From: a virus
Taxonomy: Duplodnaviria > Caudoviricetes
Length of the DNA: 34,952 nt
Reading direction: 5' to 3' (one strand)
IMG/VR virus record: IMGVR_UViG_3300031519_000098
Span: 1-34,952 of that record
Under the pieces are notes generated by a model that did no database searches, was not told where the DNA came from, and was given only the letters and a program-made list of their open reading frames with translations. The position numbers and the translations under genes are program-made. Positions 2,119 through 32,374 of the stretch are shown one piece after another. Position 1 is the stretch's first letter; each line of letters begins with the position of its first letter.

Positions 2119-3599
2119 TGGGATTAAGAACAAACTTACTTAGAAGATTCGGCCTTCAGCCTATCCCTAAAGACCTGCGCAGACGTAGGCGTAATTATGC
2201 AGGCGCTGTTGTTTCTCGTTTAACTAGCGATTGGATGAGCACTCAGGCGAGTGCTGACGCTGAAATCCGTACAAGCATAAGAAAGCTCCGAGACAGATCT
2301 CGGGAGATGGTGCGGAACAATCCGTATGCCAAGCAAGCAAAGAGGACCACGCAAGTCAATGTTATTGGCAGTGGCATCAAGCTTCAATCTCAAGTTCAGC
2401 AACTAAGGGGGAGAAAGCTAAACGATTCGGCTAATCGCTTAATTGAAGAAAAATGGCGCTTCTGGACTCGCGGCGAGAACTGCGATGTTGCTGGAAAGCA
2501 CAGTTTTCACATGATGGAATGGCTTGCTACTGGTGCATTGCCTGAGTCAGGTGAGGCTTTGTTCAGAATCATTAGGCGTCCGTTCGGCAGCAGCAAGGTG
2601 CCATTGGCGCTTGAAATGCTTGAGTCTGACGTATTAGATGAGGAATACCAAGGGCCGACCCTCGCTAGGCGCAATGAGTGGAGGATGGGAGTTGAAATCA
2701 ATGAATGGGGACGCCCAGTACGTTATGCGTTTTTAACTCGACACCCTGGTGATTATTGGTTCCAAAATGTTTCCGAAAAAGAGGGGAAGCATGTATTCCT
2801 TCCAGCATCAGATGTAATCCATTTGTTTTTGCCAGAAAGGCCGCAGCAGAATCGCGGAGTGCCTTGGTTCCATTCCGTGATGGCTGACGCGCATCAGCTG
2901 CAAGGATACGAAGAAGCCGCTGTAATTCGTGCTCGCGCTGGCGCAAGTGTTATGGGCTTTGTCACTAGCCCAGAAGGCGAGCTTGACGGCGATGATGTTG
3001 AAGACAGCCGCAGAATTAGCGAGTTTGAGCCTGGCATGTGGAAGTATTTAGAGCCTGGCCAGAATGTTGAGGTTCCAAATATCAGTTCACCGGACCAGCA
3101 GTTTGAGATGTTTGTCAAAAACAAGGTTCGCCGTTTTGCTTCAGGCTTTGGCTGCAGCTATGAAACTTTGTCGCGTGATTTCTCAGACACTAACTACAGC
3201 AGTAGTCGTTTGAGTCTGCTCGAAGATAGAGAGCATTGGAAGGTAGTGCAGAGCTATTTAATTGAAAACTTTCACATGAGGGTATTCCGTGAGTGGCTTG
3301 GCTTGGCTGTGCTTGCTGGAGAGCTACCGTTTTCCGATTACGAGGAAAGGCCAGAGCGATACGACACGCCTAGATGGATGGCTCGCGGATGGGATTGGGT
3401 CGATCCTCTTAAAGAGGCTAAGGCTTACCGTGAGATGGAAAATGCGGGGTACTATACGAAAGCTCAAATTGTCTCAAGACTCGGCGGAGACTTCTTCGAC
3501 AACTTGAGTGAGATTGCAATGGAACAGCAAGCAGCCCGTGATCTTAACGTTGAGCTTGATCGTGACATTATTGAGCAGCCCCCGGAGGTAATTGATTAA
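2118..3599 (+). CDS. Portal protein, lambda family
   Basis: LRDRSREMVRNNPYA, GVEINEWGRPVRY, QNRGVPW, NYSSSR, WVDPLKE motifs; 493 aa; position. Confidence 0.95.
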   Translation: MGLRTNLLRRFGLQPIPKDLRRRRRNYAGAVVSRLTSDWMSTQASADAEIRTSIRKLRDRSREMVRNNPYAKQAKRTTQVNVIGSGIKLQSQVQQLRGRKLNDSANRLIEEKWRFWTRGENCDVAGKHSFHMMEWLATGALPESGEALFRIIRRPFGSSKVPLALEMLESDVLDEEYQGPTLARRNEWRMGVEINEWGRPVRYAFLTRHPGDYWFQNVSEKEGKHVFLPASDVIHLFLPERPQQNRGVPWFHSVMADAHQLQGYEEAAVIRARAGASVMGFVTSPEGELDGDDVEDSRRISEFEPGMWKYLEPGQNVEVPNISSPDQQFEMFVKNKVRRFASGFGCSYETLSRDFSDTNYSSSRLSLLEDREHWKVVQSYLIENFHMRVFREWLGLAVLAGELPFSDYEERPERYDTPRWMARGWDWVDPLKEAKAYREMENAGYYTKAQIVSRLGGDFFDNLSEIAMEQQAARDLNVELDRDIIEQPPEVID

Positions 3600-6061
3600 T
3601 GCCATTTATGCCAAACGATGGGATGCGTGAAGAAGCGCAGCGTTATAAAAAGTGGAAAGAGGGTGGAATGAAGGGAGGCACTGAAGTTGCTTCTCGTCGT
3701 GCGACTCAAATTTTGAGCGGTAATGAGTTGAGCGATGAGACAGTAATCACGATGAGCGCATGGTTTGCGCGTCACGAAGTAGACAAGAAAGCTGAAGGCT
3801 TTAGTCCAGGCGAAGAGGGTTATCCTTCTCCTGGCAGAGTTGCTTGGGCCGCTTGGGGTGGCGACTCTGGTAAAACATGGTCAGACCGTATTGTTGAATC
3901 TATGGATCGTGCAATGAATCAAGAAGAAGTTCGCGCCGAACCTGACGCTTTAGATGTTGGAGATTTTGTGCGGTGGAGTTCCTCAGGGGGCAACGCTCAG
4001 GGTCGCATAACAAGGATCGTCCGTGATGGCCAGCTAGAGGTTCCTGACGCAGATGTGACTATTAATGGAGAGGAAGACGATCCTGCTGCATTAATCAGAA
4101 TTTATCGCGAAGGCGATGAAGGCTGGGAAGAGACTGATGTTTATGCAGGACACAAATTTAGTACACTGAGAAAGATCGAAGCATTACGCGAAATGGAGGT
4201 ACAAGAAGAGGTGCATTATGCCGCTTTTGACAAAGAAGAGGGGAACGTTTCACGCGACCTTGAGGGCAAAACCTTTCAACGATCTGAAGCCACAAGTTTC
4301 AGAATGCTTGATGAAAGGAGCATGGAGTTTCCATTCAGCTCTGAATATCCCGTGGCTCGTTACTTTGGAAACGAAGTCCTGAGCCATGAAATGACAGCCG
4401 CAAATCTTGAGCGGCTTAATGATGGCGCACCGCTTCTTTATAACCATGATCCAGATCGCATGATCGGCGTTGTCGAGCGTGCATGGATTGATGGCGAGAA
4501 AAAGCGTGGTTATGCCAAAGTGCGTTTTTCGCGCAATAAACTTGCGCAAGAAATGCTCGACGACGTTCGCGATGGAATAATTCGCGGCGTTTCTTTCGGT
4601 TATTCCATTGATAAAATGGAGGAGCGCGAAAGTGAGTTCGTAGCCACGAATTGGCGAGGCTACGAAATTAGTTTGGTCAGTTTACCCGCTGATCCAACTG
4701 TCGGGATTGGGCGCTCTTTAGTAGAACCCAATACCGAAATCAAACTCGAAGTTGATCGTTCTTTAGAGGACGTTGACTCCGATACCAAAACTGCGGCTTC
4801 GACCGCATCTCCCGTAAACACAGTGACTGAAGTCATGGAAAGCACCACAACTGATGTGGAGGTGATCCGGTCCGAGGCCGTAGAGGCCGAACGTAACCGG
4901 ATTGCATCCATCAACAAACTCGGTGAGCGTCACAACCTCTCCGATCTCGCACGCGAACTAATTTCTGGCGGCAAATCCGTCGATGAGGCTCGCGCTGCTG
5001 TCCTAGAAAAAATCGGAACTCAACCCGTGGAACACAGCATCACCGCCAACGACATCGGCCTCTCCGATAAGGAGACCCGGAGCTTCAGCTTCGTCAAAGC
5101 TCTGAACTATCTCTCTAACCAGGGTGATGCTAAGGCTCGTCGCGATGCAGCATTTGAAATTGAAGTTGGCGAGGCTGCTGCTAAGCAGTACGAGCGTTCT
5201 TCAAACGGCATCGTCATTCCCAACGAGGTTCTACGTCGCGATTTGGTTGTAGGCACACCTACAGCTGGTGGTGATTTGGTTGACGATGTGCTTCTGGCTG
5301 GATCCTTCATCGATCTGCTTCGTAACCGTCTGTCAATTTCACAGGCTGGCGCAACGATGCTGACGGGCCTCCAAGGCAATGTATCAATTCCTCGCCAGAC
5401 AAGTGCGAGCACTGCTTACTGGGTTGGCGAAAACGCTTCTCCTACCGAATCTCAGCAGGCCATTGATCAGGTGAATATGACACCCAAAACCGTGGGTGCA
5501 TTTGTTGACTATTCAAGGCGTCTTCTGCTTCAAAGCAGCATTGACGTTGAAGGCATGATCCGCAATGATCTTGCTCGCGTGATTGCGCTTGAAATTGACC
5601 GCGCTGCTGTTTACGGCACCGGCTCTTCTAACCAGCCTCAGGGCCTGACCAACGTCAGTGGTATTGGATCTGAGACCCTTACAGGTTTCGGGACTTTTGA
5701 AGAGATGATTGCTATGGAGACTGACGTTGCAGCCGCTAACGGTGATATTGGCGCAATGCGTTACATCATCAATGCTTCTGCTCGCGGTGCTCTTAAGTCA
5801 ACCAAGAAAGATGCTGGCAGCGGTGATTTCGTTTACGAAAACGATGAAATCAACGGTTACCCCGTAATTGTTTCCAATCAGTTGCTCAACAACGATGCAC
5901 TGTTTGGTGATTTCTCACAGTTCGTGATGGGCATGTGGTCAGGCTTGGATCTGACTGTTGATCCTTATGCTGGCGCAACTGCTGGCACCGTTCGCGTTAT
6001 TGCCTTGCAAGACATTGACTTCGGTGTTAAACAGCCTGCATGTTTCTGCTTCGCTAGCTGA
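3599..6061 (+). CDS. Prohead protease (HK97 type) - major capsid protein fusion with two additional N-terminal domains
   Basis: Protease motifs PLLYNHD, GVSFGY, EISLVSLPADPTVG (aa ~238-372); HK97-fold capsid motifs (AYWVGE, GTGSSNQPQG, LFGDFS) in the C-terminal half. Confidence 0.92.
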   Translation: MPFMPNDGMREEAQRYKKWKEGGMKGGTEVASRRATQILSGNELSDETVITMSAWFARHEVDKKAEGFSPGEEGYPSPGRVAWAAWGGDSGKTWSDRIVESMDRAMNQEEVRAEPDALDVGDFVRWSSSGGNAQGRITRIVRDGQLEVPDADVTINGEEDDPAALIRIYREGDEGWEETDVYAGHKFSTLRKIEALREMEVQEEVHYAAFDKEEGNVSRDLEGKTFQRSEATSFRMLDERSMEFPFSSEYPVARYFGNEVLSHEMTAANLERLNDGAPLLYNHDPDRMIGVVERAWIDGEKKRGYAKVRFSRNKLAQEMLDDVRDGIIRGVSFGYSIDKMEERESEFVATNWRGYEISLVSLPADPTVGIGRSLVEPNTEIKLEVDRSLEDVDSDTKTAASTASPVNTVTEVMESTTTDVEVIRSEAVEAERNRIASINKLGERHNLSDLARELISGGKSVDEARAAVLEKIGTQPVEHSITANDIGLSDKETRSFSFVKALNYLSNQGDAKARRDAAFEIEVGEAAAKQYERSSNGIVIPNEVLRRDLVVGTPTAGGDLVDDVLLAGSFIDLLRNRLSISQAGATMLTGLQGNVSIPRQTSASTAYWVGENASPTESQQAIDQVNMTPKTVGAFVDYSRRLLLQSSIDVEGMIRNDLARVIALEIDRAAVYGTGSSNQPQGLTNVSGIGSETLTGFGTFEEMIAMETDVAAANGDIGAMRYIINASARGALKSTKKDAGSGDFVYENDEINGYPVIVSNQLLNNDALFGDFSQFVMGMWSGLDLTVDPYAGATAGTVRVIALQDIDFGVKQPACFCFAS

Positions 6062-8896: not shown

Positions 8897-9223
8897 ATGG
8901 CTTTCGTTCGTAAAAAGGTCAAGACTTTCAAATGGCCCGTGAAAGTTGAGGAGCCTGCCGATGGTGGAGTTTTTGAGACTTCAACTTTTGATGCAGTTTT
9001 TAAGCGTGTTCCAAGGTCTGAGTTTCAGAAGCTCGCCGATAAAGGCGATTTCGATCTACTTAAGTCCGTATTGATCGGATGGGACGGTATCGAGGACGAA
9101 GAAGGCAAGCCTGTACCGTTTGCTCAGGCAACTATGAAAGAATTTGCTGATGATGCTTATTGGATTCGCGGTGTGCTGCAGGCTTACACCGAGACGTTTG
9201 AGGGGGCCAAGCTGGGAAACTAA
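8897..9223 (+). CDS. Tail assembly chaperone (gpG analogue)
   Basis: VLIGWDGIEDEEGKPVPF motif; ends ...LGN-stop on a slippery heptamer; between tube and tape measure. Confidence 0.88.
   Translation: MAFVRKKVKTFKWPVKVEEPADGGVFETSTFDAVFKRVPRSEFQKLADKGDFDLLKSVLIGWDGIEDEEGKPVPFAQATMKEFADDAYWIRGVLQAYTETFEGAKLGN
9214..9220 (+). other. -1 programmed ribosomal frameshift site G GGA AAC
   Basis: X XXY YYZ heptamer in correct phase immediately before TAA; -1 frame open to 9564. Confidence 0.88.
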
Positions 9224-9564
9224 AAGGTGCCGTTGAGTATTGGGCGAAAGGCGGCAAGAGGGTAGAAGATAAAAGTGGTGATGATGCAGCGGCATTTGGA
9301 TTGAAGCCGCAGCATCAGGCCGCACCTGAAGAAGAGCATTTTGAAGTGTGGGAAGAGAATTGGGAAGCGTTATTGATGTTTTTGCGAATGCAGACGCAGT
9401 GGACTGTCACGATGGGAGGTTACGTTGGCTTGAAGTATGAGGTTTTGCTTGGTGCGTCAGGACTGATGTCCCTTTATGATGTAGAGAATCCCCGTGAGAT
9501 GCTGGAGGAACTTCAGGTGATGGAAGCCGCAGCCCTCTCAGAATTAAACAAGTCTGATAAGTAA
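9214..9564 (+). CDS. gpT-like frameshift extension (gpGT fusion ~222 aa, DUF1799-like)
   Basis: -1 frame reads LKGAVEYWAKGG...FEVWEENW...MQTQW...GLKYE...LQVMEAAAL and includes track ORF 9301..9564. Confidence 0.85.
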   Translation, partial: GKLKGAVEYWAKGGKRVEDKSGDDAAAFGLKPQHQAAPEEEHFEVWEENWEALLMFLRMQTQWTVTMGGYVGLKYEVLLGASGLMSLYDVENPREMLEELQVMEAAALSELNKSDK

Positions 9565-30253: not shown

Positions 30254-30618
30254 TTCTTTACTCATTTAAAGGTCAAGAGCCCGAGCCTTTGCCTCATCGA
30301 ATTAATCTCCCTAACGGTTTCACTCGTACAGACTCCAGCACGTTTACGGATCTAGAAATCAGCGAGGCAGGTTTCTCTGGTCCGTATTCGCTGCCAGATT
30401 TTGATCCACAGACTCAGCAGGTGATCTGGGTTGACGGAGACTATGAGGTTATTGAAAGACCCCCTGAACCTGAACCAGAGCCCGAACCAGAGCCGTTAGA
30501 CCTAGATGTCGCAGCTCAGTTAATGATCGATGCAGCCGCTAGTAATGACAAGGAAACACTTTCACTAATTTTGCAGCAACTTCTTGAAGCAGCAAAACGG
30601 CCCAGTCAAGAACTTTAG
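30250..30618 (+). CDS. Putative fibre assembly/accessory protein with (PE)n linker
   Basis: Last gene of the fibre block; PEPEPEPEPEP at 30463-30495. Confidence 0.5.
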   Translation: MILYSFKGQEPEPLPHRINLPNGFTRTDSSTFTDLEISEAGFSGPYSLPDFDPQTQQVIWVDGDYEVIERPPEPEPEPEPEPLDLDVAAQLMIDAAASNDKETLSLILQQLLEAAKRPSQEL

Positions 30619-30619
30619 T

Positions 30620-30625
30620 TAAAAT
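30620..30625 (+). promoter_or_regulatory. Putative -10 element (TAAAAT)
   Basis: Intergenic, 28 nt before GTG 30654. Confidence 0.4.
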
Positions 30626-30653
30626 ACAGAGAGCAAAACGTGCTTAGCTAGCA

Positions 30654-30929
30654 GTGATCGAAATTTATGCCGCGATCCTGGGGGCGTCTATTGGTATTGC
30701 CGGAATGAGTATATCTGGTTTTAGCAGACGTACCTCCGAGTCCCGCGAAGCCGTTATACGTTTGTCGGCTGGGCTTGAATCGATTGCAACCAAGTTGGAA
30801 GATCTGCACCAAGACATGAAGGCGGAAAAAGTCCAAGCTAACATGGACCGAAAAGAAATTTACGAGCGTCTAAATCAGCACGGCAACCGAATAACTGTTT
30901 TGGAAAGCACTAAGGTTAGAATCGACTAG
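30654..30929 (+). CDS. Membrane-anchored coiled-coil protein of the lysis cassette
   Basis: N-terminal hydrophobic helix then heptad-like region ending RITVLE; upstream of endolysin. Confidence 0.6.
   Translation: MIEIYAAILGASIGIAGMSISGFSRRTSESREAVIRLSAGLESIATKLEDLHQDMKAEKVQANMDRKEIYERLNQHGNRITVLESTKVRID
30917..30922 (+). promoter_or_regulatory. Putative -10 element (TAGAAT)
   Basis: 24 nt before ATG 30947. Confidence 0.4.
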
Positions 30930-30946
30930 GAATAAAGGTATCTCCA

Positions 30947-31096
30947 ATGGGCATCGAAGAAATCTTGGCATCTCCAATCACATGGATCGTGATTGCAGCC
31001 GCTTCTGAGGTTATTGCGCTATCACCATTGCGCGATAACAGCTTGATACAGCTTATCTTTCATGCACTAAGGGCGCTGAAAGGAAAAAAGAGCTGA
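30947..31096 (+). CDS. 49-aa holin-like protein (not in ORF track)
   Basis: MGIEEILASPITWIVIAAASEVIALSPLRDNSLIQLIFHALRALKGKKS: hydrophobic helix, amphipathic helix, basic tail; upstream of endolysin. Confidence 0.7.
   Translation: MGIEEILASPITWIVIAAASEVIALSPLRDNSLIQLIFHALRALKGKKS
31084..31090 (+). other. Candidate -1 frameshift site A AAA AAG
   Basis: Canonical bacterial slippery heptamer in phase (GGA AAA AAG), one sense codon before the stop. Confidence 0.65.
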
Positions 31097-31314
31097 TCCC
31101 TGCTGATGGGAGGTGGCTTTTTAGATTTTCAACGCGATCTCCTCTTGAAGGATTGAAGCGCGAAATTCAACGTCGCAAATTCGAGGCAACTCTAAAGCCT
31201 CGAATCGACGCTGAGGTTGAACGCTGGCATAAGTCGCAACCGCCAGCAATGCCACCGCCTGAGCGGATAGGCGACCTACACATAAAATCACCGTGGAGCA
31301 ATGACGAACAGTAA
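31084..31314 (+). CDS. -1 frame extension of the holin-like gene (fusion ~122 aa)
   Basis: Frame open 31039-31314 with no ATG/GTG before 31249; fills the gap to the endolysin and overlaps its start. Confidence 0.6.
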   Translation, partial: KKELIPADGRWLFRFSTRSPLEGLKREIQRRKFEATLKPRIDAEVERWHKSQPPAMPPPERIGDLHIKSPWSNDEQ

Positions 31315-32374
31315 GTCAATCTCACTTGAACAGCTCTTTAGGTACTACAAAGGCTTGCCGCACCAAGCCGCAAGCATTTCGCTTCTAGAAGAAGATCTAG
31401 TAAGTAATGGTTATGACGCAGCGATGCGACGTGACCGTGAATGGTTTGCAACTTGGAGCCAATCCGGGAAGCAATCTGATCACAAGCAAGCATTAGACCT
31501 GATTAAAAAGTTTGAAGGATGGCACGCCGAGGCATATCTGTGCCCCGCAGGGTTCTGGACGATTGGATGGGGCAATCTGTCGCATCCAGATGGTCGCCCT
31601 GTAAAGGAAGGCGACTGGATCAGAAGGAAAGAAGGCGATTCTTTGCTGGAAGGCACCGTAGACAAAATTGACGAGAAGCTTTCTCAGACCATTCCTTACT
31701 GGTCAGAAATGGCGGAGCATCAGCAGGCCGCGCTGATCAGCTTTGCCTACAACCTCGGCGCTGGGTTCATGGGCGCAGAGGGATTTGAAACAATTAGCTC
31801 GAAGCTTCGTGCGAAAGACTGGGAATCTGTTCCTGACGCGATGCTGCTCTATCGAAACCCCGGTTCTCATTTTGAGCAAGGATTACGCCGTCGAAGGCAG
31901 GCCGAGGGTAACCTTTGGAAAGGTGGCGATCAGTCACCGCCTACTGAGACTGCCAAGCTACGGCCTGGGTCTCCATTCACCAGTCGGCTGACCCCACACA
32001 TCACTCTGGGTGAGTTTGCTCTAAATCAAGAAGAGCGCAGATTCAACGAGCAACACCAGCTAGACACCGCAGCCACTCTCGCGGCATTTTTAGAGCGTGT
32101 TCGTGGCAGGTTTGGTAGCAAGCCAGTCGTAATCACGTCTGGCTACAGACCACCAGCTATAAACAGATCGGTTGGCGGTGCTAGCGGGTCAGAGCACTTG
32201 TACCCGGCACCGGGGGTTGGTGCTGTGGATTTTTATGTGCAAGGCTCTGACATTTATGAGGTACAAGAATGGTGTGACCAAAACTGGCCGCATAGTTTAG
32301 GATATGGGGCCAATAAAGGATTCGTTCATCTCGGTATGCGAGAGGGCGGCCCAAGAATACGCTGGGACTACTAA
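31301..32374 (+). CDS. Endolysin: N-terminal domain + GH24 lysozyme + peptidase M15 domain
   Basis: IKKFEG-WHAEAYL-C-PAGFW-TIGWG (E-x8-C-x5-T), ALISFAYNLG, GLRRRRQAE; ITSGYR...SEH...AVDF...GFVH. Confidence 0.9.
   Translation: MTNSKSISLEQLFRYYKGLPHQAASISLLEEDLVSNGYDAAMRRDREWFATWSQSGKQSDHKQALDLIKKFEGWHAEAYLCPAGFWTIGWGNLSHPDGRPVKEGDWIRRKEGDSLLEGTVDKIDEKLSQTIPYWSEMAEHQQAALISFAYNLGAGFMGAEGFETISSKLRAKDWESVPDAMLLYRNPGSHFEQGLRRRRQAEGNLWKGGDQSPPTETAKLRPGSPFTSRLTPHITLGEFALNQEERRFNEQHQLDTAATLAAFLERVRGRFGSKPVVITSGYRPPAINRSVGGASGSEHLYPAPGVGAVDFYVQGSDIYEVQEWCDQNWPHSLGYGANKGFVHLGMREGGPRIRWDY

What the first reader, a model, noticed from the sequence alone, without database searches (positions are those of the whole stretch)
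30947..31314. Candidate programmed -1 frameshift in the lysis cassette: short and long forms of a holin-like protein
Seen: an untracked 49-aa membrane ORF (30947-31096) ends GGA AAA AAG AGC TGA, with A AAA AAG (31084-90) in phase. The -1 frame is open to 31314 and has no ATG/GTG until 31249 (TTG at 31153). It encodes 74 protein-like residues (ELIPADGRWLFRFSTRSPLEGLKREIQRRKFEATLKPRIDAEVERWHKSQPPAMPPP...) that fill the gap to the endolysin. An AAGGG sits 10 nt upstream (31069-73) and a small TCCC/GGGA hairpin starts 6 nt downstream. Established: A AAA AAG with upstream SD-like site and downstream hairpin is the E. coli dnaX/IS3-type signal; holin/antiholin pairs usually arise by dual start (lambda S105/S107). 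Inference: 49-aa and ~122-aa products made at a fixed ratio could be a frameshift-based holin/antiholin timing system, which I do not know as a described mechanism.
Basis: partly seen in the sequence, partly recalled or inferred. Interest (0 to 1): 0.82.

Follow-up and report, generated by a model that had tools for sequence, protein, structure and literature searches.

The report
Ribosome slip in cyanophage lysis gene
A tiny predicted membrane-protein gene just before the cell-wall-cutting enzyme of this cyanobacteria-type phage ends in a slippery sequence kept across many related phages, so ribosomes likely make a 49-residue form and a rarer 122-residue form, which would be a way of tuning host lysis that I did not find in the papers searched.

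Summary
Observation confirmed; a programmed -1 frameshift is very likely (about 0.9), the holin/antiholin role plausible but unproven. ORF A (30947-31096, 49 aa) ends GGA AAA AAG AGC TGA; the -1 frame B (31090-31314) is under purifying selection (pN/pS 0.12). [quoted passage not shown] The codon under the stop is never ATG and is not a usual start in 50 of 174. A matches no known holin family, but sits by unrelated endolysins and often occurs without B, so the short form is likely the core and the long form accessory. Distant phages (S-CBS2, S-CRES3) encode B-like proteins with their own starts. The tree gives too few independent pairs for significance. No paper found describes it. This scan reported the same feature on other genomes at least ten times.

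The parts
30654..30929 (+). Gene U, 91 aa: N-terminal hydrophobic helix plus predicted coiled coil; second membrane-protein candidate of the cassette (phrog_26178, unknown function)
   Evidence: max 19-residue hydropathy 1.7; homologue upstream of A in 150 of 251 loci
30947..31096 (+). ORF A, 49 aa: one predicted membrane helix, a conserved SE...NS turn, an amphipathic helix and a basic tail (phrog_22542, unknown function); short form
31084..31090 (+). Slippery heptamer A AAA AAG, in phase, one codon before the stop
31094..31096 (+). TGA stop of A; the heptamer lies 0-1 codon before the stop in 169 of 170 relatives with both B and a heptamer
31090..31314 (+). -1 frame extension B, 74 codons: Trp/Arg-rich start, long predicted helix, Pro-rich linker, terminal I-x-S/A-P-W motif; its end overlaps the endolysin start
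31069..31073 (+).
31097..31111 (+).
31301..32374 (+). Endolysin, 357 aa: phage lysozyme PF00959 plus peptidase M15 PF08291; no obvious hydrophobic N-terminus by eye

Best explanation
The 49-codon gene A ends in a conserved A AAA AAG site where a minority of ribosomes likely slip back one base and read 74 more codons, so the gene would make a short predicted membrane protein, likely the core holin-type lysis component, and a rarer 122-residue form whose soluble tail likely adjusts how or when it acts. Shown: the sequence, the conservation, the selection on B, the lysis-cassette context. Inferred: tandem slippage of two lysine tRNAs (most genomes of the presumed host family have only the UUU lysine tRNA); a low-to-moderate shift rate, since no conserved SD or hairpin was found and the adjacent stop may supply the pause; A spanning the inner membrane once with its C-terminus inside; the long form co-assembling with the short form and delaying or shaping the lesion at a ratio fixed by the slip. 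Odds by step: frameshift about 0.9; A a lysis membrane protein about 0.7; long form a regulator of the short form about 0.45.
For: 269 distinct junctions: B with heptamer 170, B without 4, heptamer without B 6, neither 89. Same-protein contrasts: Lys-Lys near the end of A reads A AAA AAG in 157 of 162 with B and 5 of 28 without; Phe-Pro-Lys uses CCA in 19 of 19 with B and 9 of 55 without. The codon before Lys-Lys ends in A across 11 different amino acids in 146 junctions. Alternates C CCA AAG (8) and G GGA AAG (2) are the two that PMC5009743 lists beside A AAA AAG as highly shift-prone in E. coli. B: pN/pS 0.124 in the -1 frame against 1.3 and 3.4 in the other two, no stops in 47 of 47. No conserved start: ATG/GTG in the first 15 codons in 9 of 174, upstream -1 start in 3 of 174; GenBank starts S-CBS1 gp23 and S-CBS3 gp22 at different places and leaves B uncalled in KBS-S-2A. 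Two of the four B-without-heptamer cases (L071, L072) have a broken B. Kept in siphoviruses, T7-like podoviruses and S-EIV1. Lysis context: homologue of the window endolysin just downstream in 190 of 238 loci; other endolysin types beside A-family genes in L438, L455, L334, S-SRP01, S-CBP1, P60. Host tRNA: UUU pattern in 60 of 61 family genomes, CUU in at most 5.
Against: No measurement of shifting or of either protein. No Pfam, NCBIfam, PHROGs or PDB match names A, B or U a holin. A has one predicted membrane helix and no large periplasmic domain, so it fits none of holin classes I-III as given in PMC9636201; U is an equally good holin candidate. The tree test is not significant: only 3 independent pairs on well-supported branches (mean 2.4 same way, 0.0 opposite; p 0.25-1). 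The sample favours near relatives (scans keep the best 80 loci) and two scans were seeded with B. CTG, TTG or GTG lies under the stop in 124 of 174, and S-CBS2, L492 and L334 have a GTG in this very register without a heptamer. 25 of 156 B-bearing loci with enough flank have no homologue of the window endolysin directly downstream. Six junctions keep a heptamer without B.
Confidence: 0.55

Rival explanations
1. The frameshift is real but A and the long form are not a holin and its regulator: U is the holin, or A acts otherwise (endolysin export helper, outer-membrane step, or single-gene-lysis-type inhibitor), and B is a separate accessory function that merely uses A as a membrane anchor.
For: No holin family match. 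Free-standing B-like proteins of 91-108 aa with their own starts exist, in L494, L495, L497 and L498 beside a U-like gene and a different small membrane protein, in L493 and L496 with no A-like neighbour found. An unannotated A-family ORF lies in a microvirus whose five annotated genes include no endolysin.
Against: A and U are the only membrane-protein candidates seen between the tail genes and the endolysin, A abuts several unrelated endolysins in either order, and in T7-like phages it lies between tail fibre and small terminase, the place of the T7 holin (recalled).
Confidence: 0.25
2. No frameshift: ribosomes ending at A's stop restart at the overlapping CUG/UUG/GUG and make B as a separate protein.
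For: CTG 114, TTG 7, GTG 3 of 174 under the stop; S-CBS2, L492 and L334 have a GTG overlapping A's stop and no heptamer; S-CRES3 has an ATG 30 nt downstream.
Against: 50 of 174 have GTA, CTA, ATA or TTA there and none has ATG; the last two letters of that codon are forced by the stop; restarting does not explain the heptamer in 170 of 174 or its switches between shifty classes.
Confidence: 0.07
3. The slip serves mainly to carry a fixed share of ribosomes to the endolysin start (translational coupling); the long protein is a by-product.
For: B's stop overlaps the endolysin start in 119 of 138 loci; in one locus (L319) the B frame runs on into the endolysin.
Against: B's amino acids are under purifying selection; B and the heptamer persist where small terminase, HNH or structural genes follow; B-like proteins exist as separate genes.
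Confidence: 0.1
4. RNA polymerase stutters in the A run and the extra base joins the frames (transcriptional slippage).
For: Runs of 6-9 A before the stop in 158 of 174; the review notes dnaX uses this route in Thermus.
Against: The run is only 6 in 142 of 174 and 3 or fewer in 11; the conserved unit is codon-phased; two RNA-library contigs of relatives cross the site without an indel, though contigs drop rare variants.
Confidence: 0.03

Closest known systems
E. coli dnaX (tau/gamma) and IS3-family -1 frameshift sites (passages of PMC5009743)
   Same: [quoted passage not shown]
   Different: No conserved SD or 3' structure found here; the shift lengthens a membrane protein in a phage lysis cassette.
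Tail assembly chaperone G/GT of lambda and other tailed phages (passages)
   Same: Phage late gene making a short and a C-terminally extended product by a -1 slip just before the stop; extension without its own start.
   Different: Other gene class and place; this phage has its own G/GT-type site elsewhere (G GGA AAC at 9214-9220).
Dual-start holin/antiholin genes lambda S105/S107 and phage 21 S68/S71 (passages of PMC9636201)
   Same: One lysis-cassette gene giving two nested membrane proteins at a set ratio.
   Different: There the forms differ by 2-3 N-terminal residues through start choice; here by a 74-residue C-terminal tail through recoding; holin activity of A is not shown and A has no sequence match to them.
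MS2 lysis gene L (titles in a reference list and a passage)
   Same: A frameshift was once proposed to control a phage lysis gene.
   Different: That shift was in the upstream coat gene and gave no lysis-protein fusion; a later title ascribes activation to termination at the coat gene.

Membership tests
Programmed -1 frameshift site, dnaX/IS3 type | In-phase X XXY YYZ heptamer, conserved beyond protein need | tested here: met
   170 of 174 with B against 6 of 95 without; synonymous contrasts
Programmed -1 frameshift site, dnaX/IS3 type | Open -1 frame under coding selection, without a conserved start | tested here: met
   pN/pS 0.124, 47 of 47 open; early ATG/GTG in 9 of 174; exceptions are lineages without the heptamer
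Programmed -1 frameshift site, dnaX/IS3 type | Upstream internal SD-like stimulator | tested here: not met
   4 of 170; pairing energy weaker than background
Programmed -1 frameshift site, dnaX/IS3 type | Downstream stem-loop or pseudoknot | tested here: not met
   z +0.43 in the window; mean z -0.23 in 50 relatives; no covariation for two registers; pseudoknots and long-range structures not tested
Programmed -1 frameshift site, dnaX/IS3 type | Host reads AAG with a single UUU lysine tRNA | tested here: inconclusive
   UUU pattern 60 of 61; CUU pattern 7 of 61, of 6 checked 4 were tRNAs; the actual host is only inferred from relatives
Programmed -1 frameshift site, dnaX/IS3 type | Measured shifting or fusion protein | not testable with these tools
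   needs reporter, ribosome profiling or proteomics
Holin | Small protein with at least one membrane helix | tested here: met
   19-residue hydropathy 1.86 from residue 6; helix 10-25 in a low-confidence model of a relative
Holin | Encoded beside an endolysin | tested here: met
   190 of 238 loci plus other endolysin types
Holin | Similarity to a described holin family | tested here: not met
   Pfam, NCBIfam, PHROGs (also 82 distant homologues), PDB, ESM Atlas gave unknown-function families or nothing
Holin | Class I, II or III topology | tested here: inconclusive
   one clear hydrophobic helix plus an amphipathic one; classes as in PMC9636201; no topology predictor available
Holin | Timed membrane permeabilisation releasing endolysin | not testable with these tools
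   bench test
Dual-start holin/antiholin | Two starts a few codons apart at the N-terminus | tested here: not met
   single ATG at 30947, one Met in the ORF
Tail assembly chaperone G/GT | Position just before the tape measure gene | tested here: not met
   that slot is filled by 8897-9564

The most novel reading that the evidence does not exclude
A lysis clock set by recoding: one gene yields a holin-type effector and, through a -1 slip, its own tail-bearing antiholin-type regulator, so lysis timing in many picocyanobacterial sipho- and podoviruses would depend on lysine-tRNA supply or modification; the tail is a mobile module that other cyanophages supply as a separate gene.
Probability: 0.3. 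Interest if true: 0.82.

Novelty: new variant of a known kind. Interest (0 to 1): 0.62.

Why it matters
Programmed -1 frameshifts in tailed phages are described mainly for tail chaperones and capsid proteins; in nine literature searches I found none described for a holin-position gene. If the lysis role holds, this is a route to an effector/regulator pair other than dual starts or separate genes, which answers a question posed in PMC9636201 (whether phages without dual starts have other antiholins). It also points to candidate membrane lysis genes (U and A) for picocyanobacterial phages, annotated only as hypothetical proteins in the records I opened, and corrects gene calls in cultured phages (S-CBS1, S-CBS3, KBS-S-2A, S-B28, S-EIV1) where it can be tested directly.

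Tried and rejected
In-frame A-B fusion proteins in the protein database (48 longer hits): several read exactly as the shifted product, but about as many run into a wrong frame, so they may be homopolymer assembly errors; not used as evidence. AlphaFold model from 9 of those fusions: mean pLDDT 59, pTM 0.25; Foldseek viral search 0 hits at E<=0.001. ESM Atlas: A only unnamed clusters; B top score 0.87 to YgjP-like, below the tool's threshold. Complex prediction of U(22-91) with B: no answer, score 0.00, no evidence either way. Hairpin in two registers: rejected. SD-like stimulator: rejected. Promoter/terminator scan 30400-31500: chance level. Loose tRNA pattern too noisy, replaced. RNA-library runs held only small shares and contigs of relatives, so expression is not shown. 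Profile comparisons of B with S-CBS2 gp48 and S-CRES3 gp115 were weak by hhalign (probability 70 and 6), stronger by my B profile (E 1.5e-9 and 7.9e-5 for Z=300). Rows dropped before the count of 269: L028 (one-base insertion inside A), L461 (false A call), L075 and L335 (no usable A), and exact duplicate junctions; 3 of 91 rows were left out of the tree (L068, L319, L334). Loci L485-L500 and L346 came later or apart and are not in the 269. An earlier count gave the Phe-Pro-Lys count as 9 of 49; the sum is 9 of 55.

Full report
Setting. The window is a whole virus record (34,952 bases, 91% complete) with terminase, portal, head, tail and tape measure genes followed by a lysis region. ORF A has its best cultured relatives in Synechococcus phages S-CBS1, S-CBS3 and KBS-S-2A, so a picocyanobacterial host is inferred. 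The order is U (30654-30929), A (30947-31096), the -1 frame B (31090-31314), endolysin (31301-32374; PF00959 plus PF08291), dCTP deaminase.

Observation. Contigs from two public DNA runs match the junction letter for letter and no laid contig has an indel in the A run, so it is not an assembly error; one of these runs may be the source sample.

B is a coding frame. In 47 close relatives the -1 frame has pN/pS 0.124 and no stops, while the other two frames give 1.3 and 3.4 with stops in 45 and 47 sequences. It stays recognisable down to about 30% identity, including T7-like podoviruses WH11-B, S-B28 and 7B11-B and S-EIV1.

The heptamer goes with B. I pooled loci from six viral scans, one genome scan and eight GenBank regions (four of the scans kept only their best 80 hits, and two were seeded with B) and, after removing duplicates and four unusable rows, had 269 distinct junctions: 170 with B and an in-phase heptamer, 4 with B only, 6 with heptamer only, 89 with neither. 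With B the heptamers are A AAA AAG 146, C CCA AAA 12, C CCA AAG 8, G GGA AAG 2, A AAA AAA 1, G GGA AAA 1. Protein need does not explain this: Lys-Lys reads A AAA AAG in 157 of 162 with B and 5 of 28 without, against 4 of 105 in neighbouring genes; Phe-Pro-Lys uses CCA in 19 of 19 with B and 9 of 55 without; the codon before Lys-Lys ends in A for 11 different amino acids. [quoted passage not shown] Against over-reading: these rows are related. On a tree of 88 A sequences B changes at least 10 times and the heptamer 11, but only 3 independent pairs rest on well-supported branches, and the sign test is not significant.

Own start? In the 174 B-bearing junctions the codon under the stop is CTG 114, GTA 21, CTA 20, TTG 7, ATA 5, TTA 4, GTG 3, never ATG; ATG/GTG occurs in the first 15 codons in 9 and an upstream -1 start in 3. 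GenBank starts B at codon 9 in S-CBS1, at codon 17 in S-CBS3 and omits it in KBS-S-2A. However, more distant phages do encode B-like proteins separately: S-CBS2 gp48 and L492 with a GTG overlapping A's stop, the Cyanobium prophage L334 likewise, S-CRES3 gp115 with an ATG, and six viral contigs with 102-108-aa versions; where an A gene precedes them, none has the heptamer. I read this as two solutions to the same need, fusion by slip or separate gene, but it keeps restarting alive as a minor rival.

Stimulators. The AAGGG is a feature of this genome only (4 of 170). The hairpin is no stronger than shuffles and shows no compensatory change in either register tried; the 30 bases after the site fold a little lower than elsewhere (mean -6.7 kcal/mol) but at z -0.23. 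What is conserved is a stop 0-1 codon after the heptamer (169 of 170); that such a stop can favour slipping is recalled, not from a call. I therefore expect the long form to be the minority product.

Function. A has one hydrophobic helix, an amphipathic helix and a basic tail; B has no membrane segment. No library names A, B or U. Context is the evidence for lysis: a homologue of the window endolysin follows in 190 of 238 loci with enough flank, A-family genes abut other endolysin types in either order, and in T7-like phages they lie between tail fibre and small terminase, which I recall as the T7 holin position. Many lineages have A running straight into the endolysin with no B (59 loci; e.g. 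L110, L205, L365), so the short form is likely sufficient for the core job and the tail an accessory. The simplest mechanism is that the long form, sharing the membrane part, mixes with the short form and delays or shapes the lesion at a ratio fixed by the slip. U could equally be the holin, and B might act on something else; that is the main rival. An unannotated A-family ORF in a microvirus with no annotated endolysin hints that A may be lytic by itself; it is a single record.

Literature. Nine searches, seen as listings with abstract starts, showed no report of a programmed frameshift in a holin gene or in these cyanophages. Passages read: PMC5009743 (first 300,000 of 449,034 characters held; 'holin' 0, 'cyanophage' 0), PMC10885494 ('holin' 0, but it lists lysins among genes known to contain a frameshift, a lead I did not follow), PMC9636201 ('frameshift' 0). 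No supplements were read, and frameshift prediction tables in supplements or subscription papers, including the original genome papers of these phages, could already list the site. Earlier notes of this scan describe the same feature on at least ten other records; they are not independent evidence and my counts do not rest on them.

Verdict. A real, widely conserved recoding site in an unannotated lysis-cassette gene: a new variant of a known kind. Frameshift about 0.9; lysis membrane role about 0.7; effector/regulator pair about 0.3-0.45. Interest 0.62.

Noticed in passing
window 8897-9564: Tail assembly chaperone pair before the tape measure gene: 108-aa ORF ending CTG GGA AAC TAA (G GGA AAC at 9214-9220) with the -1 frame open to 9564; the ordinary lambda G/GT-type shift in the same phage.
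   Followed up: partly
L346:2849-2989 (microvirus MH572431): Unannotated 46-aa A-family ORF with an AGGAGG upstream, in a 4.3-kb genome with no annotated endolysin; candidate single-gene lysis protein; no other microvirus hit.
   Followed up: partly
L485:1602-1913 (S-CBS2 gp48), L488:1654-1929 (S-CRES3 gp115), L492-L498: Free-standing B-like proteins (phrog_6464, phrog_22672) with their own starts; in L494, L495, L497, L498 they sit by a U-like gene and a different 58-66-aa membrane protein (phrog_9685).
   Followed up: partly
L319: The B frame runs on in frame into the endolysin (321 codons), which would give an A-B-endolysin fusion; single contig, may be an error.
   Followed up: no
L071, L072, L074, L076, L109, L111: Shortened or broken B: frameshifted with heptamer lost (L071, L072), in-frame internal deletion to 34 codons (L074, L076), 18-codon remnant with heptamer kept (L109, L111).
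   Followed up: partly
P0142, P0125, P0185, P0041, P0006: A-family segments fused to a lipoprotein-like signal, to a secreted-looking domain, or behind U-like coiled-coil proteins in database entries; context unknown.
   Followed up: no
window 31301-31480: About 60-residue N-terminal segment of the endolysin before the lysozyme domain, conserved across relatives with and without B, with no Pfam match.
   Followed up: no
L339, L341, L340, L343: A few Cyanobium-family genomes carry a tRNA-Lys(CUU), in two cases right beside the UUU gene; such hosts might shift less.
   Followed up: no
window 3599-6061: 820-aa head gene joining an unknown N-terminal part (phrog_2859), a maturation protease and the major head protein.
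   Followed up: no
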